Shown here: positions 13,770 through 44,542 of the stretch, in pieces
Layout: each line of letters starts with the position of its first letter
Numbering within the stretch: position 1 is the first letter of the stretch
DNA from: a virus
Taxonomy: Duplodnaviria; Heunggongvirae; Uroviricota; Caudoviricetes; Crassvirales
Reading direction: 5' to 3' (one strand)
IMG/VR virus record: IMGVR_UViG_2974789010_000001
Coordinates: 10,182-74,181 of that record
DNA length: 64,000 bases
The notes under the pieces: model-generated
Told to the model about the DNA's origin: nothing
Databases searched by the model: none
Seen by the model: only the letters and a program-made list of their open reading frames with translations
Translations under genes and position numbers: made by a program

Positions 13770-14108
13770 CTATGCAGCCCAGTTTTGTTTAGGCTCTGCA
13801 GTATTCCAAGCACAGTGCATGAGAGTATCCCATAACTCCCTTGCTCTTACTTTCTTGAAGAAAGAGTTTGGATGGTCATCATCTGAGAAGAACCATAATT
13901 CATTATATGGCATCTCTTCAATCATAAGACCTTGAGGTACACTTTCATCTACGGGAAATCTAAGGATATAATCCTTATCATTCTCAACAGCTTGCATAAA
14001 TTCATCAGTAACTTTAACTGATATATTAGCTCCAGTTACCTTAGTTAAGTCCTGCTTCTTAGTAATGAACTCTTCAATGTCAGGATGATTAATACTCATA
14101 CTTAACAT
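13770..14108 (-). CDS. Ribonucleotide reductase middle fragment or exon
   Basis: INHPDIEEFITKK and ANISVKVTDEFMQAVENDKDYILRFP resemble conserved RNR blocks. Its start codon overlaps the LAGLIDADG stop (TAATG). Confidence 0.65.
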   Translation of the reverse strand: MLSMSINHPDIEEFITKKQDLTKVTGANISVKVTDEFMQAVENDKDYILRFPVDESVPQGLMIEEMPYNELWFFSDDDHPNSFFKKVRARELWDTLMHCAWNTAEPKQNWAA

Positions 14109-15046
14109 TAATGCCCCCTATTTGGACTATATCTTAACTCATTAATTGAGTCTTGGGTACTACTCTGGTTATTAAGAGTTCCATTTAACTCTCCAGTAGT
14201 CTCTGCACTTTCCACAGAAAGGTCTGTGGCACAGCTCAGTATTGTACAATTTGTATTTTCACTGAGTTCTCCCAATTCAAGACGCAGGGCATTATAATTA
14301 TCAAATTTTCTTTTTAAAGGTATAAAAGAGTCATCAGCATATAAGTAATTATAAAATTTAAGTATATCCTTCTTATTAGCAAACTCTAATACATAACAAT
14401 CTTCATTTGCTTTAGGTCTTACTATAGTAGATATCCCTATTTTATATAATACTTTTTGTACACTTGTTAAGATACCTAAGGATGAAGTAAAACTAACTTT
14501 ATGCCATATCCTATTTCTATCCTTTCTATATCCCCAAGTTATACAACCATCAGCATCAAATATCCCTCTAATCAAATAGACTTCTAAGTCTTTTTGAATA
14601 ATAGGTACATTTCTATCTTTCTTTTTATTTCCCCCTATAAATTTATTTATTCCAACTATTTTTCTGACTAATCTTATTTTTGGAAATCTTCTTTTTTCTT
14701 TTACTAAAGTTAAATCTTCAAAAGATTTTATACCAAGTAATGGTGAAAATAAATCCATAAGTTCTGAGTCATTAATAGCTACACTAATTTCAACAATTTC
14801 ATTGTTAATACTTGAATCAGCTATTATAAAACCTAACATGTATGCCAATTCCTTACTATCTATTTTAGTAAGATGATATGGTAAGTATTTAGGTTTACTA
14901 TATAGATTATTCAGATTATAATTTCTGATATATCTACTTATAGTAGTATTAGCTACTCCTAATATTAATCCAATTTCTCTTGTTGTTTTACCTTCTTTAA
15001 GAAAATTCTCTAATAGTTCTTTTGAAATATTACATACTCTATTCAT
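14108..15046 (-). CDS. LAGLIDADG homing endonuclease with an N-terminal HTH
   Basis: Two LAGLIDADG motifs: MLGFIIADSS and LIRGIFDADGC. Sits between two RNR fragments. Confidence 0.8.
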   Translation of the reverse strand: MNRVCNISKELLENFLKEGKTTREIGLILGVANTTISRYIRNYNLNNLYSKPKYLPYHLTKIDSKELAYMLGFIIADSSINNEIVEISVAINDSELMDLFSPLLGIKSFEDLTLVKEKRRFPKIRLVRKIVGINKFIGGNKKKDRNVPIIQKDLEVYLIRGIFDADGCITWGYRKDRNRIWHKVSFTSSLGILTSVQKVLYKIGISTIVRPKANEDCYVLEFANKKDILKFYNYLYADDSFIPLKRKFDNYNALRLELGELSENTNCTILSCATDLSVESAETTGELNGTLNNQSSTQDSINELRYSPNRGH

Positions 15047-15070
15047 TTTCTGTAGATATTTAATTAATTA

Positions 15071-15628
15071 TTAATTTAAGAACATTTTACGTCTTCCATT
15101 CTGAGCCACTTCATTGGTTATATCTGAACATACATCCATGAAAGATGCTGCACCAGTTGAAGATTTAGCAGCATTATTAACTCTGGCTCCTCTTGGTCTA
15201 AGTTGAGATAAGTCATAACCAACTCCACCTCTTCTCTTCATAAGTTGAGCTTGTTGACTTCTTGTCTTCATTATCTCTGCATAACTATCTTTAGGACTAC
15301 CTATTACAAAACAATTACTAAGACTTACCAATGCTCCAGTTCCACAACCAGACATAACTGAACCTCCAGGTATAATATACTTGAAGTCCTTGAATAACTG
15401 ATAGATAGCCTCTTCATCAAGTTGTGGTCTAACATAGCCATAGTTTGATAAATTACTAAAAGCCCTATCTATATTACTCTTCCAGTTATAATTACTCTCT
15501 ACTCTTGCAAATTCCTTAGCTAACCTTTTGTGTGTATCATCAGGAGTTTGTTCTCCTTCTGCTGCATACTTATTCCTCCAAGTTGAGGCTGCAAGTTCAT
15601 CACCTTTAAAATATTCTAACTCTGTCAT
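15071..15628 (-). CDS. Ribonucleotide reductase N-terminal fragment or exon
   Basis: LSNCFVIGSP and RRGGVGYDLSQLRPRGARV blocks typical of RNR catalytic subunits. Terminated by stop codons 8 codons before the LAGLIDADG start. Confidence 0.7.
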   Translation of the reverse strand: MTELEYFKGDELAASTWRNKYAAEGEQTPDDTHKRLAKEFARVESNYNWKSNIDRAFSNLSNYGYVRPQLDEEAIYQLFKDFKYIIPGGSVMSGCGTGALVSLSNCFVIGSPKDSYAEIMKTRSQQAQLMKRRGGVGYDLSQLRPRGARVNNAAKSSTGAASFMDVCSDITNEVAQNGRRKMFLN

Positions 15629-17917: not shown

Positions 17918-18589
17918 TTAATACTCTTGGAACCATTTAATAGGTTCACCATACTTCTCTTTTGTTAGTTTGCTTACTTCTTCAAAGACTGTTGAAGGCA
18001 TCCTCTTTTCCATTCTAGCATAGTAGGCTGGATGCTTTTCCTCAAGAATGATATTAGACTTGCTATTAATATAAGGTATAAATGTTCTAGCTTGTTCTCC
18101 AAATAGAACATAGATTATACCTGTATTCCACTCTGATAAGTTCTTTAATAACTTAGTGATGAAAGGTCTCCATAACATTGTATGACTTCCCACTTTATTC
18201 ATCTCTACAGTTAATGCTGAGTTTATCATCAATATACCTTGATTAGCCCAACTTTCTAAAGTCTGGTCAAAGATAATACTATTATGTGGAACCTCAAAAT
18301 TAATAGATGCCTCTTTAACAATCTTTAGTGAAGGAGATAAGTTATCTTCGCTTACCTCACTCCTGTTACCAAATAGAACACCTGTGGCTATATCTTTCTG
18401 TGGATATGGGTCTTGCCCTATCATAACTACCTTCAAGTCTTCATAGGGACACAGAGTGAATGACCTGAATACATCAGGAATACTAGGACATATAGGCTTT
18501 CTTATATTGCCTATAATCCCAGTAACCTTATTCAACTCATTAACATCTATAACTCTAATCCAATTACCAAAATATTCATTTAGTGTCAT
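17918..18589 (-). CDS. Uracil-DNA glycosylase family 1-like protein
   Basis: VVMIGQDPYPQKDIATGVLFGN matches the UNG GQDPY water-activating loop region. The C-terminal His motif is degenerate (EKHPAYY). Confidence 0.55.
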   Translation of the reverse strand: MTLNEYFGNWIRVIDVNELNKVTGIIGNIRKPICPSIPDVFRSFTLCPYEDLKVVMIGQDPYPQKDIATGVLFGNRSEVSEDNLSPSLKIVKEASINFEVPHNSIIFDQTLESWANQGILMINSALTVEMNKVGSHTMLWRPFITKLLKNLSEWNTGIIYVLFGEQARTFIPYINSKSNIILEEKHPAYYARMEKRMPSTVFEEVSKLTKEKYGEPIKWFQEY

Positions 18590-19374
18590 AACTTAAACTG
18601 TCTTACAACTTCATCTGCATGAGCTGCTAACATTTCATTCATCTCTTCATTAGTAAAGTCAGCTCTCATAGGTGTAGGAGTTCTAAAGAACCTACTAGCA
18701 TCTTCAATAATAACCTTGACTTTAATATTCTCACTTATTTTTATCCAATTTATCCTAGAATAAGGAAGAACATCTCTGCTACTTAACAAATAAGGAAGAA
18801 CTTTCTTCATTATATCTTTACCTATTAAGTCACTACCGTCAATGATTATATTAGGATGTAAATACACTCTACATTCAGTCCAAGTCCAACCTCTCACTCT
18901 ATTGCTGACATCTTCAACATCATAATGACCTATCAGAGTAGCAAAGAATATAGGGTTAAAATTAGCATCAAAGATATAGCCTCTTCCTCCATGATACTCA
19001 ATATCTTTGTTTGTCTTTATATTCACCATGCCATATTGAATGGTAGATTCAAAGAGTTGTTTGAGTATAGAATCAGCAGTTCTTTTGTTATTAATATAAC
19101 TCTGCTGAATTATAGGAACCACTAACTCTTTTTCTCCTATACTTGAAAAGGTTTTCCCAATAGTAGTTCTTAGTTCTCTCTCAGCATAACCTCTTATAGC
19201 AACTGGAACCTCAAACTCTGGACCACTTAAATCACATTTAGTGAACCTATTAAGCACATTATTATTAGACCAACTTACACCTGCTTGAGATAACTGAGAA
19301 TACTCACCACTTCCTTCATTTCTGAATAAGCCAGCAATTGTACTAGCAAATCTATAGTTAATTGTTACTGCCAT
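18586..19374 (-). CDS. Hypothetical protein, co-operonic with the E1-like gene (contains an HPN tripeptide)
   Basis: 262-aa ORF overlapping both neighbours by 4 nt. Contains YLHPNIIIDG, which resembles the E2/UBC HPN motif but has no obvious catalytic Cys downstream. Confidence 0.4.
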   Translation of the reverse strand: MAVTINYRFASTIAGLFRNEGSGEYSQLSQAGVSWSNNNVLNRFTKCDLSGPEFEVPVAIRGYAERELRTTIGKTFSSIGEKELVVPIIQQSYINNKRTADSILKQLFESTIQYGMVNIKTNKDIEYHGGRGYIFDANFNPIFFATLIGHYDVEDVSNRVRGWTWTECRVYLHPNIIIDGSDLIGKDIMKKVLPYLLSSRDVLPYSRINWIKISENIKVKVIIEDASRFFRTPTPMRADFTNEEMNEMLAAHADEVVRQFKL

Positions 19375-19375
19375 A

Positions 19376-20389
19376 CTACATTTCTACTTTATAATACATA
19401 GTAGTTGCATCATAGGTAGTAAGGAAGGGCACATCTCTTGGGAATACTGGGTCACATTCATTAGCTACAAAGTTAACAAATATATTGACCATAACTGAGC
19501 CAATCATATTAGCCATAAATGTAGTTTGTTTATAGCTACAGAGAGTTTCTTCTGCCTCTGCATCACTAAATAACCACTCTTCTTCATAGAGTTTCATTGC
19601 CCTTTCATCATCACCTTGAATTGCAATTACTTGAAATTCTTCTGCTGCCAATCTACCATCAATGAATAGACATTTAGATGGATCATCAGTTGTGTTTCTC
19701 CAGTTCTTCCAACTTTGATAGAATACCTTTCTTGCTTCCATGTTATCAAAGCCACAAATCATTATAGGACCTCCTAAGGATTGGTCAGTAAATCTTTGAG
19801 TATTCACATTACCATTATAGAAGTTACCATAATTCTTCATCATTTGATAAATGGCATTACCTTTATAGTTTCCTACATCTGTTACACTATACAACTGACC
19901 TGACATATTAACAGCTTCTACTCTATCATCATCATACATAGTGATTCTAGCTGGTTGCATTCTAGCTAATAGAAATGCAACATAACTACCAATACCACCT
20001 AATCCAGCTAATATAATAGATTTCTGTCGAATAGCTTCATACCAGACAGCACCACTAAATCTACTTGTAGATTCCTGCAACTGTAAAGTAGCTGAATTCA
20101 CAGGTATCTCACTGTCTTGAGTAGCAATTGCTTGGTCAAGTACAGCTTGTTCTTCTGGTGTCAATTCTACTGATGGTTCCTCAGATACTTGAAGAGTATC
20201 ATCTATAAGGGTTGATTCTTCAACCTCTCTACTAGCTAAAAATCTATCAGCTTCTTCTATTAGTGCAGCTAAATCAGGAGATAATGGCTCCTCTACAACA
20301 GGTATTGGAGTCTCATCAAATGTAGCAGTCTGCATAGCCTCTTCATAATCAGTAGGCACTGCTTCTATTACTCTTTCTTCTTCATTCAT
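19376..20389 (-). CDS. E1-like / ThiF-MoeB family adenylyltransferase
   Basis: Rossmann motif ILAGLGGIGSYVAFLLAR followed by DDDRVE, typical of ThiF/MoeB/E1 enzymes. Confidence 0.7.
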   Translation of the reverse strand: MNEEERVIEAVPTDYEEAMQTATFDETPIPVVEEPLSPDLAALIEEADRFLASREVEESTLIDDTLQVSEEPSVELTPEEQAVLDQAIATQDSEIPVNSATLQLQESTSRFSGAVWYEAIRQKSIILAGLGGIGSYVAFLLARMQPARITMYDDDRVEAVNMSGQLYSVTDVGNYKGNAIYQMMKNYGNFYNGNVNTQRFTDQSLGGPIMICGFDNMEARKVFYQSWKNWRNTTDDPSKCLFIDGRLAAEEFQVIAIQGDDERAMKLYEEEWLFSDAEAEETLCSYKQTTFMANMIGSVMVNIFVNFVANECDPVFPRDVPFLTTYDATTMYYKVEM

Positions 20390-20391
20390 AA

Positions 20392-21648
20392 TTAAATGAT
20401 ATATCTATTTAATATTTCAATGAACTGATTAATATACTTACCTTTAGTAGTGAGTGCACTAAGCACCTCTGCTAAGTCATGTGCAATTAATGCAGCAAGT
20501 ACTTCATCATCAAACATCTCAAGCTTAGGGTCTTCTGTATAGTACACAAGGAACTCTACATATTGTTCTGCCCAAGCATGGAATAGCTTTTCATCTTCAA
20601 ACCTTTGTTCAAACATTTCTTCACCAGCCCTAGCTAATTCATCAAGAGTTGTATCAGTAGGCTTAAAGTAATTGATGTCACCAGTAACTAACTGAGCAGC
20701 TAAATCATTAATAGTCTCAGGGTCAACTTTAACATGACCATAAGGAGGTGGCACATCAACATCAGGTTCTTCAAAAGGTAACTCATTCTGTACAGGTGGT
20801 ACATAGTTAGGATTTGTAGGTACTGCTAGATTACCTCTTCCTACATTAGTCTGGTAACTGATGCCATTTGTAGGTACTGCTGGTTTATCCTCTTTCTTAC
20901 CCCAGTTTCCATATTGACCATAGTTATTATAGCCACCACCATAGTTACCATAAGGAGTTGTTGCAGCTTTTTCTTTAGCAGCTTTAGCTTTCTGTTCTTT
21001 AACTTCTTCAATCCTAGCAGCCATTTCTGAAAAGGGATTTTCAATGGCAGGTCTTTCTACATCAAGCATAAAGTACTCAAGCTTCTTTCTATTGAAGCTG
21101 TAAGTAACAGGGCTTCCAGTTACCTCTTGACCATTGAATGTAGGATATTTAATGAAGCCAGTAGCCTGCATCTCCTCAACAACCACTCTTGTAATAGCTG
21201 CTTGATAAGTACCTTTAGTATCAATAATCAAGGATACAAAGTGAATTCTATCAGTGCCCTCTTCTCTAAGAGTAGCTAAGTCTGTACCACTAAAGAATGC
21301 ACCTAATATATGATGTGAGTGCATTAATCCTTGATATACCTTTTCATCAAGTAACTCTGGATGCTCTACCATATAACCTATTACATCAGGAGACTGGTTA
21401 AACTCAGTATAGCCACTAGTTCCTATATCTTGCAATAGGAAATCAAAGGCATTAATTACCAAGTCTTTAGTTTCAAAACTTCCAGATACTGTATAGAATA
21501 AAGTACCTGAGTATTCATCTCTTGGAAATCTATCCAAGTAATATCTTATTTTCTGTTCCAATTCTGGGCTTACAATTAACTTATACGTAGATGACTGTTT
21601 TACTAGGTCCAGCAGTTTGGGTTTCTGTACTGTTGTTTCCATATTCAT
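20392..21648 (-). CDS. JAB/MPN (JAMM) metalloprotease domain protein
   Basis: Exact JAMM motif HSHHILGAFFSGTD (H-x-H-x7-S-x2-D). Low-complexity N/Y/G-rich C-terminal half. Confidence 0.7.
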   Translation of the reverse strand: MNMETTVQKPKLLDLVKQSSTYKLIVSPELEQKIRYYLDRFPRDEYSGTLFYTVSGSFETKDLVINAFDFLLQDIGTSGYTEFNQSPDVIGYMVEHPELLDEKVYQGLMHSHHILGAFFSGTDLATLREEGTDRIHFVSLIIDTKGTYQAAITRVVVEEMQATGFIKYPTFNGQEVTGSPVTYSFNRKKLEYFMLDVERPAIENPFSEMAARIEEVKEQKAKAAKEKAATTPYGNYGGGYNNYGQYGNWGKKEDKPAVPTNGISYQTNVGRGNLAVPTNPNYVPPVQNELPFEEPDVDVPPPYGHVKVDPETINDLAAQLVTGDINYFKPTDTTLDELARAGEEMFEQRFEDEKLFHAWAEQYVEFLVYYTEDPKLEMFDDEVLAALIAHDLAEVLSALTTKGKYINQFIEILNRYII

Positions 21649-22762
21649 AATTTACTACTTTCAAAATACATTTATATATGTATTCTGCAAGTCTGTTGTT
21701 AATAAAATTAGATAAGTTATTATCATTGGCTCTGCTTTCCAAATCCCTTACCACTAGTCTTACTTCTTCACCTTTAAAGATACATACTTTCTTTCCTACA
21801 TATCTTGAATAGTAAGTTCCTCTACCACTGTTATCATAATAGAACCTGTTGTTATTGATGATTCCTTTTACAAGTACACCTTCTGCAAGCAAGTCTAAAT
21901 ATGTAGCAGTTGCATTACCCTCAGCATATTGAATATTGTACCATTCAATGAATTCATTGCTCAAGAATATTCTCCAAGTGATATATGACATACTGATACC
22001 ATAGCTACCATTAGCAAAATCGAACTTGAGTTTCTTTCTCTCAAGAAGCCATTTGACAAATTGTCTAACTCTTTCATTATTAAATGAATTAAAATGAGGC
22101 AAATTTTCATCACTAAACATAGGCCAATTACTCTCACCATGACTCATACTATTCTTACCAAGATTTTCCATTCTCTTATAAGGACCACCAGCAAGTGACT
22201 CTACTTGAACATATTTACTAAGCTCAAGACAGAATAATTGCCATCTTAGTTCATCAAAGCCTGCTGCTAGTAACGCAAGAGTATCTCTAATAGGACCACT
22301 ACCTAAACAAGGAGATTGAAATGATGTGAAGTTACTTGTAGGTATAGAATGAATATGGCTGTGCATATAGTTATTCTGTAACTGGAATACATCATATTCA
22401 GCTCTATTTAGCAGGAAGTCTCCTCTTGATTTACCTCTCCAATTAAAAGTTACTTTAGCATACAACTCCCAGATGTCTATATATCTATCATTTTCATTAG
22501 TTACCCTAACTTCTGGAAATCTAACTAATATAAATATCTCATTGAACCTGTCAGAACCATAAAGATTATTCCCTGGTTCAAGAATACTTTCCTCTGAGAA
22601 GTTCCTTCTAATAAGAGATATATACCCTTCTAGTGATAGGTAGTTCTGCATATCTACAAACTCTTCACCATAGAAATCCTTAAATATATCATAAATAATA
22701 TTAGGCTTTTCCATGATAGAGTTATACATGCCTGTTATCTTTTCTATTATTCTTTCTTCCAT
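21581..22762 (-). CDS. Hypothetical protein
   Basis: 393-aa ORF overlapping the JAB gene. No recognisable motif. Confidence 0.45.
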   Translation of the reverse strand: MEERIIEKITGMYNSIMEKPNIIYDIFKDFYGEEFVDMQNYLSLEGYISLIRRNFSEESILEPGNNLYGSDRFNEIFILVRFPEVRVTNENDRYIDIWELYAKVTFNWRGKSRGDFLLNRAEYDVFQLQNNYMHSHIHSIPTSNFTSFQSPCLGSGPIRDTLALLAAGFDELRWQLFCLELSKYVQVESLAGGPYKRMENLGKNSMSHGESNWPMFSDENLPHFNSFNNERVRQFVKWLLERKKLKFDFANGSYGISMSYITWRIFLSNEFIEWYNIQYAEGNATATYLDLLAEGVLVKGIINNNRFYYDNSGRGTYYSRYVGKKVCIFKGEEVRLVVRDLESRANDNNLSNFINNRLAEYIYKCILKVVNYEYGNNSTETQTAGPSKTVIYV

Positions 22763-22769
22763 ATATCAC

Positions 22770-22810
22770 CAAAAAAAAGAGGCTGATGAATACTCACCAA
22801 CCTCTTAATG
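22770..22810 (-). terminator. Rho-independent terminator
   Basis: On the minus strand the stem AAGAGGTTGG...CCAGCCTCTT is followed by TTTTTTTT, immediately downstream of gene 22815..23753. Confidence 0.6.
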
Positions 22811-22814
22811 TTAT

Positions 22815-23753
22815 TTACTGTGCCCAACCACCAAACAGAGAATTAATCTCTGATTGAGAAAGGTTATCATCTTCTTTCTTAGGAGCAGGCTGTTCAGCTT
22901 TTGCCTCTACAGCTTGAGTTTCACCACATTCACCTTGTAGGTCATCAAGCAATTCTGAATAGTTGCCATATAAATCCTCTTCATCAATAAGAAGATTCAA
23001 TAATTGACCTAAGATTCTTCTTGCCTTTACATCTATTACTTGTACAGGTGCAACAGATGCAGGAGCACCACCTTGACCTTCAATAGATGCCATAGCACCT
23101 GCACCAATCAAGTCACTTACAAACTTAGCAGCAACTTCCTTAGTCAATCCTTGGATTCTTGAAGGAACGCCCTCAACGATGTCTTTAGCTTCTTTCGAGC
23201 TCACATTGACAGTTTCCATTACTACTTTCACAACTTTAAGCTTATCACTACCTGCATTGCTGATAATAACAGCAGTATTACCTATGGTAGGGGCAGCTTT
23301 AACAGCAGGAGCTTCTACTTTAGGTTCAACTTTAGGGGATGCACCTGCAATTAGTACCTCCAAATCAGAAGTACTGCACTGGGTAAAGTTCTTACCATAC
23401 TTAGCCTTACAAGCATCCTGCAATCCAAGCTGCTTAATCTTAGCATAAGCAGCAGGTCTATCACCAGCGCCACTTCTAATCTTCTTGTTAGCTGTGGTCA
23501 ACATGAACACCAAGTCATTGGTAGTAGTGGCAGGGGTTGTGCCCTTAGCTGCAACAGGAACATTAGTAGGCAGAACTGAGGCATCATCCTTCAATTCTGT
23601 TCTTGTTCTACCTTCATAGAATGTCATGTTGTCATAGTTGATACCTGCTCTTCTCATGTCTGCTTTTAAAGCACCAAGAGTTTCAGCTTCTGACATAATA
23701 CTTTTCTGACTTGAACTGTTGTTCATCACGAATAAAATCTTTCTTGCTTCCAT
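22815..23753 (-). CDS. Phage protein containing a ribosomal bL12 (L7/L12) C-terminal-like domain
   Basis: KLKVVKVVMETVNVSSKEAKDIVEGVPSRIQGLTKEVAAKFVSDLIGAGAMASIE aligns by eye with bL12 CTD ([27 protein letters not shown]...EEAGAEVEV). C-terminus ...SLFGGWAQ. Confidence 0.6.
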   Translation of the reverse strand: MEARKILFVMNNSSSQKSIMSEAETLGALKADMRRAGINYDNMTFYEGRTRTELKDDASVLPTNVPVAAKGTTPATTTNDLVFMLTTANKKIRSGAGDRPAAYAKIKQLGLQDACKAKYGKNFTQCSTSDLEVLIAGASPKVEPKVEAPAVKAAPTIGNTAVIISNAGSDKLKVVKVVMETVNVSSKEAKDIVEGVPSRIQGLTKEVAAKFVSDLIGAGAMASIEGQGGAPASVAPVQVIDVKARRILGQLLNLLIDEEDLYGNYSELLDDLQGECGETQAVEAKAEQPAPKKEDDNLSQSEINSLFGGWAQ

Positions 23754-23766: not shown

Positions 23767-24783
23767 TTAAAATGGGATATTGATGTTTACTTGTTCTCCA
23801 TTTATAAGGCTGAGAATCACCTGTTTGAACTCATTCACATTGTTAAGGAGCTTGAATAAGTCACTACAATCTTTAGCTCCATAATCAGGTAATACTAAAT
23901 TAGTGAACCCAGTGGACTCTGACAGTTTCCTTGCATCTTCCAAGCCAGCTTCATCATTATCCAGTAGTATATAAATCTCTTTATATCTCCTTTTAAGTTC
24001 ACTAATTGCAGTATCACTTATACTATAACCTTCACCTTGAATTGCAATACATGGCACACCTGTATTAGACCAAACACATAGAGCATCTTTCATTGAAGAG
24101 CAGACTATTAACTTCTCTCCTTGCTCAGGTATTTTAGTCCAAAGACTTATTACTGACCTATCATGTTTGTTTGACCATTTATAGCCATTAGTATTGAATG
24201 GTTGATATATCTTAAGAGTAACTTTACCCTCTTTTCTCTCAACATAAGCATAAGCATACTTATCAGCAGCAAATATGAATTTGTTGTTACCCTTAATCAC
24301 TATCTTATGTGATATAGGATAAATGTCTGCATATTTTAGCCAATCGAGAGATATACCAAAGGATTGCCAATATTCAATATCATGCTTCCTCCATTCTCTT
24401 ACTCTGCATTGTAAGTCAGTACTTTCACTATAACTGCTAATTGACTGGGGTTTGCCCATCTTGTTTGATTTAGCATAAGTAGTGGATATATTAGGTAAGT
24501 CATCCCAGACTTTCTTTAAGACTTCTCTGTAACTCACCCCCCAATATTCACCTAGCATATCCCAAAGACCTCCTGAGGTATTCTTGGATAAGTCTTTCCA
24601 GTATATTTTACTTCCATCTAAGGTATAAATACCAAAAGAAGGGTCTTTATCTACCCTAAGAGGGCTAGATATTACACATGGAATATTACTCACGTTGAAA
24701 TAATGATAGAGTATATCAGCTTCACTGACTTTGCTCAGAATATCATTAAGAGTTATGCTAGTTGTACCACTACCAAATGCCAT
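23767..24783 (-). CDS. Toprim-domain DNA primase (DnaG-like)
   Basis: Toprim signature EKLIVCSSMKDAL...ILLDNDEAG (E...DxD). C-terminus ends NIPF. Confidence 0.55.
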   Translation of the reverse strand: MAFGSGTTSITLNDILSKVSEADILYHYFNVSNIPCVISSPLRVDKDPSFGIYTLDGSKIYWKDLSKNTSGGLWDMLGEYWGVSYREVLKKVWDDLPNISTTYAKSNKMGKPQSISSYSESTDLQCRVREWRKHDIEYWQSFGISLDWLKYADIYPISHKIVIKGNNKFIFAADKYAYAYVERKEGKVTLKIYQPFNTNGYKWSNKHDRSVISLWTKIPEQGEKLIVCSSMKDALCVWSNTGVPCIAIQGEGYSISDTAISELKRRYKEIYILLDNDEAGLEDARKLSESTGFTNLVLPDYGAKDCSDLFKLLNNVNEFKQVILSLINGEQVNINIPF

Positions 24784-24813: not shown

Positions 24814-25794
24814 TTACTGTACCCAGCCCCAAGGACCTGCCTGTGCAGCAGGAGCTGCATTACCATTTGTAGGATTTGCAGGAGGGAAAGGCATAGCACC
24901 TGCTGAGAAGTCAGTTGACTCTACAGAATATTCATGCAAAGGTTCAATACTGAACTCAGTTGTAGGATAGGAGCCAGCAGCTTTTCTTCCTTGAATATCT
25001 GCATCAAGTTTGCTGTAATCAGTAATAATGTTCTTCAAGAACTTCTGAGTATAAACAGCTTGATATTGTTTGTTTTCATCAGTTGTTCTTACACCAAAAC
25101 ATGCCTTCACAACATTCTTAGGTTGCAGTTTCAAGATAGAGTCAAGCTCCTTGAAGTCACCCTTGAAATAGTTGTCAATGCTATCCAGTCTAGCCAGAGC
25201 ATCATCCAGATTAGGCAAAGTCTTGGTAACAAGTTCACCAGTGTTCTTGTCTTTGTAGCTGAATGATGGGTTAGGGATATTCAAATAGGCTTTGATAAAG
25301 CCTGTCAATTCTTCCTCACCAATATATGCAGGTCTGTAATCTTTGTCAAGGTTTGCAGGACCATTTTCATACTGAGGAATTGCATGTGCTTTGGCTTCCT
25401 CAATAGTAGGCCAAGCAGTCTGACCATACTTGTCAATCACCTGAACTTTGGTGTTATCTCTGTTGTATCTGAATGCTTTCTTAACAAAGAAAGTAATCTT
25501 GGTTCTCATCTCAATGCCATTAGTCTTAGCAGCATCAGAAACAACCAAGAAATCAATTCTTACTTGAGGAACTTTGGTTTTATTACCATCAGGACCTACC
25601 TCAGATTCACCAAGATATACAGGCTCTTCATCAATGTCACTCTCATAAAACTTACTCAGCATTTCCTTGTTAGGGTTAACTGCTGTTACAAATACAGGAG
25701 CAATACCCATATAGAGTTTTCTATTGCTCTCTTTAGATTCAGAGCCTGCGGCAAAAGCCATAAATACTTTAGCACCTTTTTTCAAATTATTCAT
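24814..25794 (-). CDS. Hypothetical protein, possible ssDNA-binding protein by position
   Basis: Sits between the primase and the Sak4-like ATPase. No motif recognised. C-terminus ...PWGWVQ. Confidence 0.3.
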   Translation of the reverse strand: MNNLKKGAKVFMAFAAGSESKESNRKLYMGIAPVFVTAVNPNKEMLSKFYESDIDEEPVYLGESEVGPDGNKTKVPQVRIDFLVVSDAAKTNGIEMRTKITFFVKKAFRYNRDNTKVQVIDKYGQTAWPTIEEAKAHAIPQYENGPANLDKDYRPAYIGEEELTGFIKAYLNIPNPSFSYKDKNTGELVTKTLPNLDDALARLDSIDNYFKGDFKELDSILKLQPKNVVKACFGVRTTDENKQYQAVYTQKFLKNIITDYSKLDADIQGRKAAGSYPTTEFSIEPLHEYSVESTDFSAGAMPFPPANPTNGNAAPAAQAGPWGWVQ

Positions 25795-38571: not shown

Positions 38572-38683
38572 AAGCATATACTGGATTTGAACCAGTGACC
38601 TTTCTTTATTAGTACAATTACAGGAGTACTACCCAATTTACCATAGTCAATAAAGAATGCTCTAACCACTGAGCTAATATGCT
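38572..38683 (-). tRNA. tRNA gene with a roughly 39-nt hairpin insertion in the anticodon loop (anticodon unresolved; possibly TGA)
   Basis: Scaffold: acceptor AGCATAT/ATATGCT, D-arm TAGCTCAGTGGTTAGAGC, anticodon stem TTCTT/AAGAA, variable AGGTC, T-arm ACTGG-TTCAAAT-CCAGT. 46 nt lie between the anticodon stem halves, including a perfect hairpin TAGTAC...GTACTA. Confidence 0.5.
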
Positions 38684-42196: not shown

Positions 42197-42269
42197 TGCC
42201 CCATAGTATAAAGGGTTATTACATATGATTTTGGCTCATATAATGTAGGTTCAATTCCTGCTGGGGTAA
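42197..42269 (+). tRNA. tRNA-Gln (anticodon TTG)
   Basis: Acceptor TGCCCCA/TGGGGTA, anticodon arm TATGA-TTTTGGC-TCATA, T-arm GTAGG-TTCAATT-CCTGC. Confidence 0.65.
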
Positions 42270-42285
42270 CTGTTGATTAATAGAT

Positions 42286-42879
42286 ATGATAGAAAATAAT
42301 AAAGAAACTTTAGAGAGATTAATATTAGAAGAGGAAAAATCCTATGAAGAAATAGGAAGGATGTTTAATGTGTCAGGCAATGCTATAAAGAAAAGAGCAC
42401 TGAAATTTGGAATGGAATTGCCTAAAAGGAGAGTTATAAATAACTCAGAGAATTTTAATAAAGGTCTAGTTAAAGTTAATATGAATACCTGTAAGACTTG
42501 TGGGAGGGAGTACAAGTTAAGGAAGTCTAATTCTAACCATTACTGCTCTCACAAATGTCAGCAATTAGCTAGACATAAAGAGGCATACAACAAGATAAAA
42601 GTAGGAGATAGCTCAATAATGAGAGCTAATTATTCTCCCTCTTTATTCAGAGAGGATATATTAAAGGAGCAGGGAAATAAATGTGATATATGTGGTATAT
42701 CTCCTATATGGAATGAAAAGAAATTGGTATTTATAGTAGACCATATAGATGGAAATGCTTCAAACAATAGAAGAGATAACCTTAGATGTATATGTCCTAA
42801 TTGTGACTCTCAATTAGATACTTATAAGTCTAAAAATAAAAATGGAGCAAGATATTATTATAGATATAAGCAGGGATAG
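42286..42879 (+). CDS. HNH homing endonuclease
   Basis: VFIVDHIDGNASNNRRDNLRCICPNCD. Confidence 0.7.
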   Translation: MIENNKETLERLILEEEKSYEEIGRMFNVSGNAIKKRALKFGMELPKRRVINNSENFNKGLVKVNMNTCKTCGREYKLRKSNSNHYCSHKCQQLARHKEAYNKIKVGDSSIMRANYSPSLFREDILKEQGNKCDICGISPIWNEKKLVFIVDHIDGNASNNRRDNLRCICPNCDSQLDTYKSKNKNGARYYYRYKQG

Positions 42880-42953
42880 AACGTAATGGAAGCGTAATAG
42901 TCTTCTAAACTATTGTCTTTATGACCTTGTGAGTTCGAGTCTCACTCCCTGTA
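42870..42953 (+). tRNA. tRNA with anticodon loop CTTCTAA (anticodon TCT, Arg-like) and a 15-nt variable region
   Basis: Acceptor GCAGGGA/TCCCTGT, anticodon arm ATAGT-CTTCTAA-ACTAT, T-arm GTGAG-TTCGAGT-CTCAC. The 5' end overlaps the stop of the HNH ORF. Confidence 0.5.
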
Positions 42954-43059
42954 CTTGGATTTTCTATTTCATAATGTAAATGAACTACAATGGGATAAAT
43001 TGGATTTCATGTTTTTAGACCACTCTGGTCTGTGAAGATAGGAGTGGTTATTTTTTAAA

Positions 43060-43134
43060 TGTTGGGTTGGACAAATTGGTTAAGTCACCACCCTTTCAAG
43101 GTGGTCAATATGGGTTCAGGTCCTATATCCTCCG
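43060..43134 (+). tRNA. tRNA-like sequence, possibly Glu (TTC), with a poorly paired acceptor stem
   Basis: Clear anticodon arm CCACC-CTTTCAA-GGTGG and T-arm ATGGG-TTCAGGT-CCTAT. I could not pair the acceptor stem. Possible pseudo-tRNA. Confidence 0.3.
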
Positions 43135-43140
43135 CATAAT

Positions 43141-43213
43141 ATAGGTGTAATTCAGTTGGTAGAATGCTGCATTTGGGATGCAGTTGTCACAGGTTCGAGT
43201 CCTGTCATCTATA
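43141..43213 (+). tRNA. tRNA-Pro (TGG)
   Basis: Acceptor ATAGGTG/CATCTAT, D-arm ATTC...GAAT, anticodon arm CTGCA-TTTGGGA-TGCAG, T-arm CACAG-GTTCGAGT-CCTGT. Confidence 0.7.
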
Positions 43214-43218
43214 CAAAT

Positions 43219-43290
43219 GGGTCATGTAGTGTAATTGGCTAACACATCACATTTGCACTGTGAAGTTGGGGTTCAAGTCCCACATGTATC
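43219..43290 (+). tRNA. tRNA-Ala (TGC), approximate boundaries
   Basis: Anticodon arm TCACA-TTTGCAC-TGTGA and T-loop GGGGTTCAAGTCCC. Acceptor pairing is only partly resolved. Confidence 0.5.
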
Positions 43291-43364
43291 CACTTGTTTT
43301 CATGTTTTCATAATGTTAGAGTTTTTAGTTCACAGGTCTAGGGTACACCTTAAGTACCCTGCAC

Positions 43365-43438
43365 TGCTCCTTAGTTCAGTGGTTTAGAATAGCACTTTTA
43401 CACAGTGAAGGTCATTAGTTCGATTCTAATAGGAGCAA
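43365..43438 (+). tRNA. tRNA-Val (TAC)
   Basis: Acceptor TGCTCCT/AGGAGCA (perfect), D-arm GTTC-AGTGGTTTA-GAAT, anticodon loop TTTACAC, T-arm ATTAG-TTCGATT-CTAAT. Confidence 0.7.
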
Positions 43439-43447
43439 CATTTAATT

Positions 43448-43518
43448 GGGAGTATAGCTCGAAGGTCGAGCACTTGACTGTTAATCAATAGGTGAAAGTT
43501 CGATTCTTTCTATTCCCG
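43448..43518 (+). tRNA. tRNA-Asn (GTT)
   Basis: Acceptor GGGAGTA/TATTCCC, D-arm GCTC...GAGC, anticodon arm CTTGA-CTGTTAA-TCAAT, T-loop GTTCGATTC. Confidence 0.7.
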
Positions 43519-43519
43519 C

Positions 43520-43768
43520 ATGGAAGAAATAAGATATTGTAATAAACATGGAAACACTTTATTTGCAGTAGATTCAGAAGGCAGATGGAGGTGTAGAAAA
43601 TGTAGAGTTGAAGCTGTACAGAAAAGAAGAGAAAGAACCAAAGAAATGGCTGTAGAATACAAAGGTGGAAAATGTTGTATTTGTGGCTATGATAGGTATC
43701 TTGGAGCTTTGGAGTTTCATCATTTAGACCCAGATGAAAAAGACTTTGTTATGTACATTAGAGTTTGA
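43520..43768 (+). pseudogene. Truncated HNH endonuclease ORF (N-terminal zinc finger and HH motif only)
   Basis: CNKHGN...CRKC...CCICGY...ALEFHHLDPDEKDF, then the ORF ends before the final CxxC-H block expected in a complete HNH domain. Starts inside the 3' end of tRNA-Asn. Confidence 0.45.
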
Positions 43769-43859
43769 AACAAGTGAGAAAGATATAGTGAACTATGAAT
43801 CTTATGCACTATTCAAGGGTATGGGTAATGATACATTAGGTCATTATAATACATAATAT

Positions 43860-43930
43860 GTATCCTTAGTTTAATGATAGAATGTTGCTCTCCAAAAGCA
43901 AAGGTAGTAGTTCGATTCTATTAGGATATG
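43860..43930 (+). tRNA. tRNA-Trp (CCA)
   Basis: Acceptor GTATCCT/AGGATAT, anticodon arm TTGCT-CTCCAAA-AGCAA, T-arm AGTAG-TTCGATT-CTATT. Confidence 0.7.
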
Positions 43931-43936
43931 CTATAT

Positions 43937-44013
43937 TGAGTTGTATCTCCTCTGTCTGATAAGCAGTAGAAAGAGTAATTGGTCACATGTGGGTTCAATT
44001 CCCACCTTCTCAA
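43937..44013 (+). tRNA. tRNA-like sequence, degenerate
   Basis: Clear T-arm GTGGG-TTCAATT-CCCAC and a partial acceptor TGAGTTG/CTTCTCA (5 of 7 bp). No clean anticodon arm found. Confidence 0.3.
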
Positions 44014-44019
44014 CTTATA

Positions 44020-44094
44020 TTCTGATATACTTCAACAGGTAGGAGGCTGCTCTCATAAGGCAGTAGTTATAGGTTCAAGTCCTATTATCAGAAC
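44020..44094 (+). tRNA. tRNA-Met (CAT)
   Basis: Acceptor TTCTGAT/ATCAGAA, anticodon arm CTGCT-CTCATAA-GGCAG, T-arm TTATAGGTTCAAGTCCTATTA. Confidence 0.7.
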
Positions 44095-44167
44095 TGTGTG
44101 GATAGCTTATCTGGTAAAAGTGCTTCACTGTGAATGAAGAGATAGGGTTCGAGTCCCTGCCACACCC
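44095..44167 (+). tRNA. tRNA-His (GTG)
   Basis: Anticodon arm CTTCA-CTGTGAA-TGAAG, T-arm TAGGG-TTCGAGT-CCCTG, acceptor GTGTGG/CCACAC with an extra 5' nucleotide. Confidence 0.65.
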
Positions 44168-44181
44168 TTTTAACTTATAAT

Positions 44182-44255
44182 GCTGAGGTAGCACAAGTGG
44201 TAAATGCAGATGGCTTATATCCATAAGATAGTGGGTTCAAATCCTACCCTCAGTA
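44182..44255 (+). tRNA. tRNA with anticodon TAT (Ile-AUA reader?)
   Basis: Acceptor GCTGAGG/CCTCAGT, anticodon loop CTTATAT, T-arm GTGGG-TTCAAAT-CCTAC. Confidence 0.55.
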
Positions 44256-44264
44256 CAATTAAAT

Positions 44265-44531: not shown

Positions 44532-44542
44532 CAAAATATAAT

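What the first reader, a model, noticed from the sequence alone, without database searches (positions are those of the whole stretch)
17918..23753. Tightly packed operon of E1-like, JAMM/JAB, an HPN-containing protein and UDG-like genes, preceded by a bL12-like protein ending in FGG-WAQ: candidate ubiquitin-like conjugation module in a phage replication block
Six minus-strand genes overlap by 1-4 nt. They are a bL12-CTD-containing protein, a 393-aa unknown, a JAB protein with the exact JAMM motif HSHHILGAFFSGTD, a ThiF/E1-like protein with GLGGIGS, a 262-aa protein with an E2-like HPNI tripeptide, and a UDG-like protein. E1 plus JAB, often with E2, is the hallmark of prokaryotic ubiquitin-like transfer systems (Bil/Bub, Cap2/Cap3, sulfur-carrier systems). 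I have not seen one embedded between primase and UDG in a phage replisome module. The upstream protein ends ...SLFGGWAQ, a diglycine followed by a short tail. That is the arrangement JAB peptidases process in Ubl precursors, although the bL12 fold is not a beta-grasp. The function, whether host takeover, anti-defence, or DNA or tRNA thiolation, is unknown.
Basis: partly seen in the sequence, partly recalled or inferred. Interest (0 to 1): 0.75.

Follow-up and report, generated by a model that had tools for sequence, protein, structure and literature searches.

The report
Phage-encoded ubiquitin-like protein conjugation cassette
This crAss-like gut phage, like about 160 related phage loci examined, carries next to its DNA primase a conserved gene set resembling a complete ubiquitin-type tagging machine (tag precursor, E2-like, JAMM protease, E1-like), a kind of system so far characterised in bacteria as anti-phage defence.

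Summary
The window is a crAss-like phage, 97.7% identical to Kolpuevirus cr126_1. All six genes and the quoted motifs are present.

The part assignments do not.

- **Ubl:** it is the N-terminal 95 residues of the "bL12" protein, not its C-terminal FGG-WAQ tail. The model is a beta-grasp with a floppy tail K-I-R-S-G95. G95 is the only invariant column in 60 diverse homologues.
- **Independence of the Ubl:** some phages encode it alone, ending G plus 3-4 residues. In others a homing endonuclease splits the gene exactly after SG.
- **Non-conserved features:** HPN, the FGG tail and the bL12 domain are lineage-specific. UDG is only a neighbour.
- **Enzymes:** the JAMM motif and the E1 adenylation residues are conserved.
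- **Synteny:** Ubl > E2-like > JAB > E1 (> p262) is syntenic in about 160 loci. A terminator-like hairpin follows the Ubl gene.

No biochemistry exists, targets are unknown, and the E2 call rests on fold only.

The parts
22815..23753 (-). Ubl-fusion precursor gene (312 aa): N-terminal Ubl, then a small helical domain, a linker with a bL12-CTD insert, and a C-terminal peptide motif.
   Evidence: ORF. Homologues sit immediately upstream of the E2-like gene in about 150 loci. There are 4244 clusters at 90% identity in public data.
23469..23753 (-). Ubiquitin-like beta-grasp domain, aa 1-95, ending in the flexible tail K-K-I-R-S-G95. The predicted JAMM cleavage and E1 activation site is after G95 (codon 23469-23471).
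   Evidence: AF2 model: topology bb-a-b..b. pLDDT is 83-93 over aa 1-60, and the tail 92-95 is below 50. Foldseek against the PDB: all top 50 hits are Ub-like folds, prob about 1.0, E about 1e-3. G95 is the only invariant column in 60 sequences, and K93 and S94 are at least 90% conserved. Standalone forms end KSG plus 3-4 aa. A homing endonuclease splits the gene exactly after SG.
23343..23459 (-). Small three-helix domain (aa 99-137) with the conserved motif GKNxTQxST..L. It is the first part of the 'cargo' released from the Ubl.
   Evidence: Helices 99-109, 112-119 and 128-137 in the model. The motif is conserved in the alignments. Only two weak Pfam SAP hits were found, so function is unknown.
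23082..23270 (-). bL12 C-terminal-domain insert (aa 162-224). It is lineage-specific and not a core part.
   Evidence: Pfam PF00542, 3e-10. NCBIfam L12 scores 31 bits, far below the cut-off of 84. It is present in only 8 homologues, all of the window's lineage.
22818..22853 (-). C-terminal peptide motif SEINSLFGGWAQ. The conserved core is S-x-E-I-[DN]-x-[ML]-F, and the GG is not conserved.
   Evidence: Tails of 78 unique gut-phage homologues. crAss001 ends ..SEINKMFDFVD and FpV4 ends ..AKMFG. Environmental relatives end in an acidic helix plus an aromatic residue, or carry a separate 54-56 aa ORF ending DLPF or DHPF.
22767..22806 (-). Terminator-like hairpin (13-bp stem, then a T-run) between the Ubl gene and the enzyme genes.
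   Evidence: A hairpin plus T-run is present in 82 of 100 unique Ubl>E2-like gaps. The comparison gaps give 0/50 for primase>Ubl, 6/77 for SSB>primase and 0/31 for UDG>Ubl.
21581..22762 (-). E2-like protein p393. The N-terminal UBC-like domain spans about aa 1-200, with near-invariant H134 and invariant S135-H136 (22355-22363) and invariant C152 (22307-22309). The C-terminal domain (aa 229-370) is of unknown fold.
20392..21648 (-). JAMM/MPN+ metalloprotease. The JAB domain spans about aa 1-200, with E45 (21514-21516) and H110-x-H112-x7-S120-x2-D123 (21280-21321). A low-complexity linker and a C-terminal helical region follow.
   Evidence: The motif residues are invariant in 41 diverse homologues. 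A family profile hits CSN5 (6e-4), Rpn11-like proteins and JAMM1 in the PDB. Pfam Prok-JAB gives 3e-4.
19376..20389 (-). E1-like adenylating enzyme. It is a single ThiF-type domain (aa ~105-337) behind a variable acidic N-terminal extension. GLGGIG is at 19988-20005 and C284 at 19538-19540.
   Evidence: Pfam ThiF, 7.9e-16. PADLOC Cap2 E1-E2 and BilD partial hits, 1e-10 to 1e-6. PDB profile hits to PaaA, MccB, UBA5, NAE1 and Cap2. R110, G129-G132, D153, D155, N161, Q165, K176, D215-N216, R220 and C284 are conserved.
18586..19374 (-). p262, the fifth and usually co-conserved gene (homologous to FpV4 gp49). It has no conserved catalytic residues and its role is unknown (adaptor or target?).
   Evidence: The jackhmmer families p262 and gp49 overlap. 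Only P57 and G132 are nearly invariant. There are no Pfam, PHROG, PADLOC, NCBIfam or PDB hits.
17918..18589 (-). Uracil-DNA glycosylase. It is a neighbour, not a core component.
   Evidence: Pfam UDG, 5e-11. It lies upstream of the Ubl gene in FpV4-like phages and downstream of p262 in gut phages.
23767..24783 (-). DnaG-type primase (Toprim). It is the constant upstream neighbour.
   Evidence: Pfam Toprim_2, 4e-6. The annotation is, and the synteny.

Best explanation
The cassette is most likely a phage-encoded ubiquitin-like protein conjugation system made of five genes.

Proposed mechanism:
1. Gene 22815-23753 makes a precursor. Its first 95 residues are a beta-grasp Ubl with a flexible tail ending K-I-R-S-G95.
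2. The JAMM protease (20392-21648) cuts after G95. This frees the Ubl from its C-terminal 'cargo' (helical domain, linker, C-terminal peptide motif).
3. The ThiF-type E1 (19376-20389) adenylates the Ubl C-terminal glycine with ATP. It possibly forms a thioester on C284.
4. The Ubl is passed to C152 of the E2-like p393 (21581-22762).
5. p393 attaches the Ubl to lysines of unknown phage or host targets during the replication phase. Its C-terminal domain and/or p262 (18586-19374) would confer target choice.
6. The JAMM enzyme may also reverse conjugation.
7. A terminator-like hairpin after the Ubl gene would let the substrate be made in excess over the overlapping enzyme genes.

Shown here: the folds, the conserved catalytic residues, the invariant glycine, the synteny and the natural gene fissions.

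Inferred: cleavage, adenylation, thioester transfer and the existence of targets.
For: Identity: the window is 97.7% identical to crAss-like phage cr126_1.

Synteny: the order primase > Ubl > p393 > JAB > E1 (> p262/gp49) holds in essentially all 160 loci fetched through E1. E1 identity goes down to 33-39%. It also holds in crAss001 gp79-75 and FpV4 gp53-49.

Ubl:
- The AF2 model is a beta-grasp with a disordered C-terminal tail.
- All 50 best Foldseek PDB hits are ubiquitin-like folds: SUMO1, ISG15, UBX, DWNN, and the bacterial Ubl 8tyx.
- G95 is the only invariant column, and K93 and S94 are at least 90% conserved.
- The linker after G is variable in length.
- Standalone 90-91 aa forms end ..KTKSG-LINQ or ..TKAG-KQN.
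- A free-standing HNH endonuclease gene is inserted exactly after the SG codons in cr106_1-like and other phages. The ORFs then end SGKF* or SGIC*, and the cargo is translated separately. There is no room for an intron and no Rfam intron at that site.

E2-like:
- The model is confident.
- H134 is nearly invariant and S135, H136 and C152 are invariant. They lie in the loop between strand 4 and helix 2.

JAMM: the full E..HxH..S..D motif is invariant.

E1: the adenylation site is conserved.

Precedent: in Type I Bub, a JAB-E1 fusion cleaves a Ubl-E2 fusion to release the Ubl (PMC11601596).

Expression layout: hairpin statistics and overlapping enzyme genes.
Against: - There are no experimental data for any step.
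- The canonical HPN motif is replaced by H-S-H, and the His-to-Cys spacing is 16 residues rather than about 8.
- The Ubl ends in a single Gly preceded by Ser, not GG.
- The Ubl model is only moderately confident (pLDDT 77.5), and its Foldseek E-values are about 1e-3.
- The region just after G95 is itself conserved. A non-cleaved UBL-domain protein therefore cannot be excluded.
- The E1 is a minimal ThiF-like domain without CYS or UFD domains. Its best PDB matches are the peptide-modifying PaaA and MccB.
- No E3 and no target are identified.
Confidence: 0.6

Rival explanations
1. Sulfur-carrier pathway. The Ubl is a ThiS/MoaD/Urm1/TtuB-type carrier. The E1 adenylates it, it is converted to a thiocarboxylate, and it donates sulfur for a thio-modification. 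Candidates are s2U34 on the phage's own tRNA-Lys/Glu/Gln, a DNA base, or a cofactor. The JAMM enzyme would only mature the carrier.
For: - The E1's best NCBIfam matches are ThiF-type adenylyltransferases, though far below their cut-offs.
- Ubl + E1 + JAB without an E2 is the classic sulfur-carrier set (Iyer et al. 2006, PMC1779556).
- The phage encodes 20 tRNAs, including Lys-UUU, Glu-UUC and Gln-UUG.
Against: - A fourth strictly co-conserved protein has a UBC-like fold and an invariant Cys. Such a protein has no role in sulfur relay.
- No rhodanese domain is fused to the E1.
- No PP-loop SGGxDS motif occurs in any frame of the 64-kb window.
- The tail ends in a single Gly (..KSG), not the GG typical of ThiS, MoaD or Urm1.
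- The E1 scores 16-56 bits against cut-offs of 150-650 for every sulfur-pathway equivalog.
Confidence: 0.12
2. The N-terminal beta-grasp is a permanent, uncleaved UBL interaction domain of a replisome accessory protein. The E1-like, JAMM and p393 proteins act on something else. Examples are a MccB/PaaA-like modification of a peptide C-terminus, or a deconjugase that strips host Bil- or CBASS-type conjugates as counter-defence.
For: - The sequence after G95 (helical domain, GKNxTQ motif) is conserved and contiguous with the Ubl in most phages.
- The best PDB matches of the E1 are PaaA and MccB.
- The cargo ends in an SSB-tip-like acidic/aromatic peptide, which suggests replisome docking.
- Host Bil systems tag phage proteins (PMC11601596), so a phage JAMM deconjugase would make sense.
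Against: - The single invariant residue of the whole family is the glycine at the end of a disordered tail.
- The linker right after it varies in length.
- The Ubl occurs as a standalone ORF ending G plus 2-4 residues, both naturally and after endonuclease insertion.
- No alternative E1 substrate is co-conserved. The cargo C-terminus is not conserved in its final residues.
Confidence: 0.15
3. The bL12-like protein is the modifier through its C-terminal FGG-WAQ, and the HPN protein p262 is the E2.
For: Both motifs are literally present in the window.
Against: - FGG is confined to the Kolpuevirus lineage. crAss001 has MFDFVD and most others have MF[AEND]GMG...
- Even within the close family, single variants read LFGS and LFDG.
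- HPN is VNPK in crAss001, and p262 has no conserved Cys or His.
- The bL12 CTD is present in only 8 homologues.
Confidence: 0.02

Closest known systems
Bil systems (BilABCD; bacterial ISG15-like anti-phage defence)
   Same: Same four functional parts as separate genes: Ubl, E2, JAB/JAMM peptidase and E1. The E2 is thought to pick targets without an E3 (PMC11601596). The PADLOC BilD model hits the phage E1 weakly (1e-6).
   Different: - It is encoded by a lytic-type crAss-like phage, inside its replication module, not by a bacterial defence island.
- The E1 is a single ~230-aa ThiF domain, not IAD-AAD-CYS.
- The Ubl and the E2-like protein belong to families with no sequence match to any Pfam, PADLOC or PDB entry.
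- The Ubl is made as an N-terminal fusion to a cargo protein.
Type I Bub operons (BubAB Ubl-E2 fusion, BubCD JAB-E1 fusion, BubE)
   Different: - Here the Ubl is fused to a non-enzymatic cargo, not to the E2.
- JAB and E1 are separate genes.
- No DUF6527/BubE serine protease was detected among the cassette genes.
- The E2-like protein keeps an invariant Cys, which suggests a thioester. Bub works through oxyesters.
CBASS Cap2/Cap3
   Same: An E1 domain related at the Rossmann level (PADLOC E1-E2 models, 1e-10; Cap2 in PDB hits). A JAB peptidase partner. Conjugation through a protein C-terminus.
   Different: There is no E2-E1 fusion, no CD-NTase and no effector. The substrate here is a genuine beta-grasp Ubl.
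Mobile-element E1/E2/JAB/Ubl operons of Iyer, Burroughs and Aravind (e.g. the PRTRC cassette)
   Same: E1-like, E2-like, JAB and Ubl genes are linked on mobile DNA next to DNA-maintenance genes. The PRTRC ThiF model hits the phage E1 (3e-10).
   Different: The score is 40 bits against a cut-off of 145, so this is not a member. The composition of the PRTRC cassette is from my own recollection and was not checked here. No Prok-E2 or Prok_Ub Pfam hits were seen. The setting is phage replication rather than a plasmid or ICE.
Lambda/T1 tail assembly proteins I (Ubl) and K (JAB+NlpC)
   Same: This is the only previously described phage Ubl + JAB pair found in the literature checked here. That Ubl also has a C-terminal Gly and is fused through a linker to a C-terminal domain, and JAB cleavage is predicted (PMC1779556).
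   Different: It has no E1 or E2 and sits in the tail-assembly module. The family is ThiS/MoaD-like.
Eukaryotic ubiquitin-ribosomal protein fusion genes (Ub-eL40, Ub-eS31)
   Same: A Ub-type modifier is translated as an N-terminal fusion and cut after its terminal Gly. In this window's lineage the downstream part even contains a ribosomal-protein domain (bL12 CTD). This comparison rests on established knowledge.
   Different: This is an analogy only. The bL12 insert is lineage-specific, and the cargo is not a ribosomal protein.

Membership tests
E1/ThiF superfamily (PF00899) | Rossmann-type ATP-binding GxGxxG, with a Pfam score above the gathering threshold. | tested here: met
   GLGGIG at aa 129-134. 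PF00899 scores 58.4 bits against a cut-off of 28.1.
E1/ThiF superfamily (PF00899) | Adenylation-site residues (Arg finger, ribose/Mg Asp, Lys). | tested here: met
   R110, D153, D155, N161, Q165, K176, D215-N216 and R220 are invariant or at least 95% conserved across 43 nr homologues. The functional roles are assigned by analogy to MoeB/ThiF from established knowledge.
E1/ThiF superfamily (PF00899) | Catalytic Cys for a thioester or acyl-disulfide. | tested here: inconclusive
   C284 is at least 95% conserved. Equivalence to ThiF C184 / MoeB C187 is inferred from sequence position only.
Specific E1 equivalogs (ThiF, MoeB, PRTRC ThiF, Cap2, TcdA, UbaA) | Score above the NCBIfam curated cut-off. 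| tested here: not met
   The best is 56 bits against a cut-off of 159. All 20 hits are far below their cut-offs and cover only the nucleotide-binding part.
JAMM/MPN+ metalloproteases | E ... HxH x7 S xx D zinc/catalytic motif. | tested here: met
   E45, H110, H112, S120 and D123 are invariant in 41 diverse homologues.
JAMM/MPN+ metalloproteases | Significant profile match. | tested here: inconclusive
   Prok-JAB scores 21 bits against a cut-off of 25. A family profile hits CSN5 at 6e-4, and Rpn11-like and JAMM1 more weakly.
Ubiquitin-like (beta-grasp) modifiers | Beta-grasp fold. | tested here: met
   AF2 model, with aa 1-60 at pLDDT 83-93. The top 50 Foldseek PDB hits are all Ub-like folds, with prob at least 0.9 for nearly all (lowest 0.80) and TM (target) 0.5-0.7 for the single-domain Ubl targets. 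E-values are only about 1e-3.
Ubiquitin-like (beta-grasp) modifiers | Conserved Gly at the end of a flexible C-terminal tail. | tested here: met
   G95 is the only invariant column of 60 sequences. The tail has pLDDT below 50. It is a single Gly (K-S-G), not GG.
Ubiquitin-like (beta-grasp) modifiers | A free C-terminal Gly is produced by processing and then activated. | not testable with these tools
   Support is indirect only: standalone forms ending G plus 2-4 aa, and endonuclease-split genes.
Ubiquitin-like (beta-grasp) modifiers | Sequence membership in a known Ubl family (ubiquitin, ThiS, MoaD, Prok_Ub ...). | tested here: not met
   No Pfam or PDB sequence hit for 49 members or for their profile.
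E2/UBC superfamily | UBC fold (helix, 4-strand meander, active-site loop, two helices). | tested here: inconclusive
E2/UBC superfamily | Catalytic Cys in the loop after strand 4. | tested here: inconclusive
   C152 is invariant and lies in loop 130-156 between strand 112-124 and helix 157-167. No residue-level superposition was available.
E2/UBC superfamily | HPN motif, and sequence match to UQ_con or Prok-E2. | tested here: not met
   The motif is Y-x-H-S-H instead of HPN. No Pfam hit in 121 members. hhalign against human E2s has probability 0.1%. The HPN in p262 is not conserved.
Bil (BilABCD) | BilD-type E1 with IAD-AAD-CYS architecture, and a bacterial defence-island context. | tested here: not met
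   The E1 core is about 230 aa with a single domain (FpV4 homologue is 228 aa). The context is a phage replication module.
Sulfur-carrier systems (ThiS/ThiF, MoaD/MoeB, Urm1/Uba4, TtuB/TtuC) | Associated sulfurtransferase, rhodanese or PP-loop thiolase, and a GG terminus. | tested here: not met
   No SGGxDS motif in the window. No rhodanese on the E1. The tail is KSG.
Ribosomal protein bL12 | N-terminal dimerisation/bL10-binding domain plus CTD, with a score above the cut-off. | tested here: not met
   Only the CTD is present (aa 162-224). TIGR00855 scores 31 bits against a cut-off of 84.

The most novel reading that the evidence does not exclude
crAss001-like gut phages (Steigviridae) and their Flavobacterium and environmental relatives run their own ubiquitination-like cascade. 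It would use previously unrecognised Ubl and E2 families to tag host or replisome proteins during genome replication. This would be a viral counterpart, and possibly a countermeasure or evolutionary source, of the bacterial Bil, Bub and CBASS conjugation systems. The modifier would be delivered as a self-processing fusion to a replisome-docking protein.
Probability: 0.45. Interest if true: 0.88.

Novelty: new variant of a known kind. Interest (0 to 1): 0.75.

Why it matters
Prokaryotic ubiquitin-like conjugation (Bil, Bub, Cap2/3) has so far been characterised as a host weapon against phages. A complete and strictly conserved Ubl/E2-like/JAMM/E1 set inside the replication module of a phage would show that viruses of bacteria also use this chemistry. 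These phages are widespread in human-gut metagenomes. The E2-like family alone has 1728 clusters at 50% identity.

The finding also does three practical things:
- It defines two sequence-orphan families (Ubl and E2-like).
- It gives hypotheses for five genes that public records annotate only as 'hypothetical', 'thiamine biosynthesis protein' or 'metalloprotease domain' in cultivable phages (crAss001, DAC15/17, FpV4).
- It makes a sharp, testable prediction. The conserved Lys at position -2 means that trypsin should leave a Ser-Gly remnant on modified lysines.

Tried and rejected
1. **C-terminal FGG-WAQ as a Ubl-type diglycine.** Rejected by the tails of about 140 homologues.
2. **p262 as an E2 via HPNI.** Rejected, because there is no conserved Cys, His or HPN. 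No family or structure hits either.
3. **bL12 CTD as the core of the system.** Rejected as a lineage-specific insert.
4. **The split Ubl genes as intron-containing genes.** Rejected. The endonuclease ORF abuts both flanks, and Rfam finds no intron there.
5. **Sequence-level proof that p393 is an E2.** None was found with a PDB profile, Pfam on 121 members, PADLOC, NCBIfam, hhalign against human E2s, or Foldseek.
6. **Sequence-level link of the Ubl to known Ubl families.** None.
7. **MSAs from IMG/VR loci for structure prediction.** I had to use database hits, which left the Ubl MSA shallow (44 rows).
8. **The cassette in bacterial chromosomes.** There were only 4 hits in 185,579 species genomes, all on MAG contigs that look like mis-binned phage. 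One homologue sits on a 1.58-Mb Puia contig, with the same phage context.
9. **Literature.** Searches combining crAss-like or crAss001 with ThiF, E1-like, ubiquitin-like or MPN returned nothing relevant. Yutin 2018 was not held under the PMC id I tried from memory. The library is incomplete, so a prior mention cannot be excluded.
10. **PP-loop thiolase for the sulfur-relay rival.** No such motif exists in the window.

Full report
**What the window is**

Region 17918-23753 is 97.7% identical over its full length to uncultured phage cr126_1 (Kolpuevirus hominis, Steigviridae, Crassvirales). The bL12-containing protein is 100% identical to a cr151_1 protein. The region lies in the minus-strand replication block. 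That block runs helicase, Sak4-like ATPase, a putative SSB, primase, the cassette, UDG, nucleases, RNR, dUTPase and PolA. In GenBank the cassette genes are annotated only as 'thiamine biosynthesis protein ThiF', 'contains metalloprotease domain' and 'hypothetical protein'. One record (PQ006092.1) says 'E1 enzyme family protein'.

**Checking the observation**

All ORFs and quoted motifs are real.
- UDG: Pfam 5e-11.
- E1-like: ThiF 7.9e-16, above the gathering threshold, with GLGGIGS.
- JAB: contains HSHHILGAFFSGTD.
- bL12 CTD: 3e-10 at aa 162-224.
- C-terminus: ..SLFGGWAQ.
- HPNI: present in p262.

The packing claim is only partly right. UDG/p262 overlap by 4 nt. p262/E1 and E1/JAB are separated by 1 and 2 nt. 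JAB/p393 overlap by 68 nt. A 52-nt gap with a strong hairpin separates p393 from the bL12-containing gene.

**Comparative genomics**

crAss001 (gp79-gp75) and Flavobacterium phage FpV4 (gp53-gp49) have the same gene order. Two scans of IMG/VR with an E1 alignment returned 160 loci, with E1 identity from 99% down to 39%. jackhmmer family assignment shows the order primase > Ubl-fusion > p393 > JAB > E1 in essentially every locus that is not truncated. This is usually followed by p262/gp49, which form one family.

UDG lies after p262 in gut phages but before the Ubl gene in FpV4-like phages. It is therefore a neighbour, not a component. In the few loci where the search missed the Ubl, a divergent ORF with the same features occupies the slot. 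A homologue on a 103-kb contig, and on a 1.58-Mb Puia MAG contig, has the same phage context. A scan of 185,579 species genomes with the p393 profile found only 4 MAG contigs. The cassette therefore appears essentially phage-restricted, within the limits of a scan seeded by two short peptide patterns.

**The modifier**

- crAss001 ends ..SEINKMFDFVD and FpV4 ends ..AKMFG. Most gut relatives end ..DEIDDMFAGMGVN.
- The conserved part is S-x-E-I-[DN]-x-[ML]-F. In environmental relatives it is an acidic helix plus an aromatic residue.
- GG is confined to the Kolpuevirus lineage.

The N-terminal ~95 residues are conserved in all homologues and end in [FY]xLFLxPxK[TIV][KR]SG.
- In a MAFFT alignment of 60 diverse sequences, G95 is the only invariant column. 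K93 and S94 are at least 90% conserved.
- The sequence directly after the Gly varies in length: A-MS, ATTMS, AVAMS, A-LSPE and others.
- An AlphaFold2 model of aa 1-145 (44-row MSA, mean pLDDT 77.5, 83-93 over aa 1-60) gives a b-b-a-b...b beta-grasp. The tail is disordered (aa 92-95, pLDDT below 50), and a three-helix domain follows.
- All top 50 Foldseek PDB hits are ubiquitin-like folds: Mpe1 Ubl, DIX, DWNN, UBX, SUMO1, ISG15 and the bacterial Ubl 8tyx. Probability is about 1.0 for nearly all, but E-values are only about 1e-3.
- No Pfam or PDB sequence relationship exists.

Two kinds of natural experiment show that the Ubl need not stay attached to the rest.
- Distant phages encode it alone. 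These are 90-91 aa proteins ending ..KTKSG-LINQ..KTKSG-STNS or ..TKAG-KQN. A separate 54-56 aa ORF ending ..DLPF or ..DHPF follows.
- In cr106_1-like and other gut phages, a free-standing HNH homing-endonuclease gene sits exactly after the SG codons. It is degraded in L079 and L068. The Ubl ORFs then end SGKF* or SGIC*, and the cargo restarts at its own ATG. The endonuclease ORF starts 1 nt after the Ubl stop codon, so there is no room for an intron, and Rfam finds none there.

**The bL12 domain**

The bL12 CTD occurs in only 8 homologues, all of the window's lineage. It is a late insertion into the linker.

**The E2 candidate**

p262 is poorly conserved, at 13% mean column identity. Only one Pro and one Gly are nearly invariant. 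HPN is VNPK in crAss001. It has no hits in any library. It is not an E2.

p393 is the better candidate.
- The family is large: 1728 clusters at 50% identity.
- Conserved residues include H134 (nearly invariant), and S135, H136, C152, G154 and E188-S189 (invariant).
- Its AF2 model is confident: 121-row MSA, pLDDT 90.8, pTM 0.81.
- The N-terminal half runs helix 2-31, strands 36-39, 76-88, 94-106 and 112-124, a long loop carrying H-S-H and C152, then helices 157-167 and 171-186. This is the UBC topology, with the Cys where an E2 active site lies.

This evidence is fold-level only. Foldseek, a PDB sequence profile, Pfam on 121 members, PADLOC, NCBIfam and hhalign against human E2s all found nothing. 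I therefore rate the E2 assignment as probable, not established.

**The enzymes**

The JAB protein has the full JAMM motif, E45...H110xH112...S120xxD123, invariant in 41 diverse homologues. Its profile hits CSN5, Rpn11-like proteins and JAMM1.

The E1 is a minimal ThiF-type domain. The FpV4 homologue is only 228 aa. R110, the GxGGIG loop, D153, D155, N161, Q165, K176, D215-N216, R220 and C284 are conserved. It belongs to no specific equivalog, because all NCBIfam scores are far below their cut-offs. Its Rossmann part resembles Cap2, BilD, PaaA, MccB and UBA5.

**Expression layout**

A 13-bp hairpin plus T-run lies at 22806-22777, right after the Ubl gene. Such a hairpin plus T-run is present in 82 of 100 unique Ubl>p393 gaps. 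The comparison gaps give 0/50 for primase>Ubl, 6/77 for SSB>primase and 0/31 for UDG>Ubl. The four downstream genes overlap, with median spacings of -62, -4 and -1 nt. This fits high Ubl output with lower, translationally coupled enzyme output. That reading is inferred.

**Mechanism and rivals**

The best-supported reading is a Ubl conjugation cascade:
1. The JAMM protease cleaves after G95. A precedent is BubCD cleaving the BubAB fusion (PMC11601596).
2. The E1 adenylates the exposed glycine.
3. The Ubl transfers to p393 C152.
4. p393 conjugates it to unknown targets.

I give this a confidence of about 0.6.

The rivals are:
- **Sulfur-carrier pathway (0.12).** It is weakened by the co-conserved E2-like protein, the absence of rhodanese or PP-loop genes, and the KSG rather than GG tail.
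- **An uncleaved UBL domain, with the enzymes acting elsewhere (0.15).** It is weakened by the invariant Gly, the variable linker and the standalone forms.

**Novelty**

The kind is known: prokaryotic E1/E2/JAB/Ubl systems such as Bil, Bub, Cap2/3 and the Aravind-type operons, plus the lambda TAPI/TAPK Ubl+JAB pair (PMC1779556). Three things differ here. The setting is a phage replication module. The Ubl is fused N-terminally to a putative replisome-docking cargo. Both the Ubl and the E2-like protein are sequence-orphan families. Literature searches found no description of this cassette. The library is incomplete, however, and Yutin 2018 could not be read under the PMC id I tried. I class the finding as a new variant of a known kind.

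Noticed in passing
window 22767-22806 (minus strand): A terminator-like hairpin with a 13-bp stem and a T-run sits directly after the Ubl-fusion gene. An equivalent hairpin plus T-run occurs in 82 of 100 unique Ubl>E2-like intergenic gaps across related phages. It is almost never found in the neighbouring gaps.
   Followed up: yes
L066 4047-4562; L036 4476-4988 and 3613-4167; remnant at L079 4700-4947: Free-standing HNH/NUMOD-type homing endonuclease genes are inserted exactly after the SG codons of the Ubl domain. They split the gene into two ORFs. In L079 and L068 the endonuclease has decayed, but the fission persists.
   Followed up: yes
window 13770-15628 (minus strand): The ribonucleotide reductase gene is a single 2520-nt CDS in cr126_1. 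Here it is interrupted by a 312-aa ORF (14108-15046) that I judged LAGLIDADG/HTH-like by eye. It is flanked by RNR fragments at 13770-14108 and 15071-15628. Rfam finds no group I intron there at gathering threshold. It could be an intein, an intron or a free-standing endonuclease; this is unresolved.
   Followed up: partly
window 23082-23270 (minus strand): A ribosomal bL12 C-terminal domain (38% identical to E. coli bL12 CTD, using a sequence recalled from memory) is inserted in the linker of the Ubl-fusion protein. It is present only in this Kolpuevirus sub-lineage (8 homologues). Its function there, possibly contact with translational GTPases, is unknown.
   Followed up: partly
window 22818-22853; L143 4365-4529; L148 4432-4602: The cargo part ends in a conserved acidic/aromatic peptide, S-x-E-I-D/N-x-M/L-F. 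In phages with a standalone Ubl, a separate 54-56 aa ORF ends ..DLPF or ..DHPF. This is reminiscent of the SSB C-terminal tip (DDDIPF) and of clamp-binding motifs. The resemblance is from memory and was not tested.
   Followed up: partly
window 42197-46914 (+) and 38572-38683 (-): There is a cluster of 20 tRNA genes, including Lys-UUU, Glu-UUC, Gln-UUG and two Met. In addition, Rfam reports a 112-nt tRNA match on the minus strand that ARAGORN does not call. It may contain an intron.
   Followed up: no
L036 10691-10934: A group I intron (RF00028, 84.8 bits) lies downstream of the cassette in a related gut phage.
   Followed up: no
window 24814-25794 (minus strand): A 326-aa protein upstream of primase is conserved in crAss001 (gp81) and FpV4 (gp56). 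All end in a Trp-containing tail (..PWGWVQ..TPWG..KSTW). It has no family hits. Position and tail suggest an SSB-like protein, which is my guess only.
   Followed up: no
L165 (JGI 3300036781, 1.58-Mb contig binned as Puia sp.): The same phage replication module, with the cassette, lies inside a 1.58-Mb contig and also on a separate 103-kb contig. This could be an integrated or pseudolysogenic crAss-like phage, or an assembly chimera.
   Followed up: no
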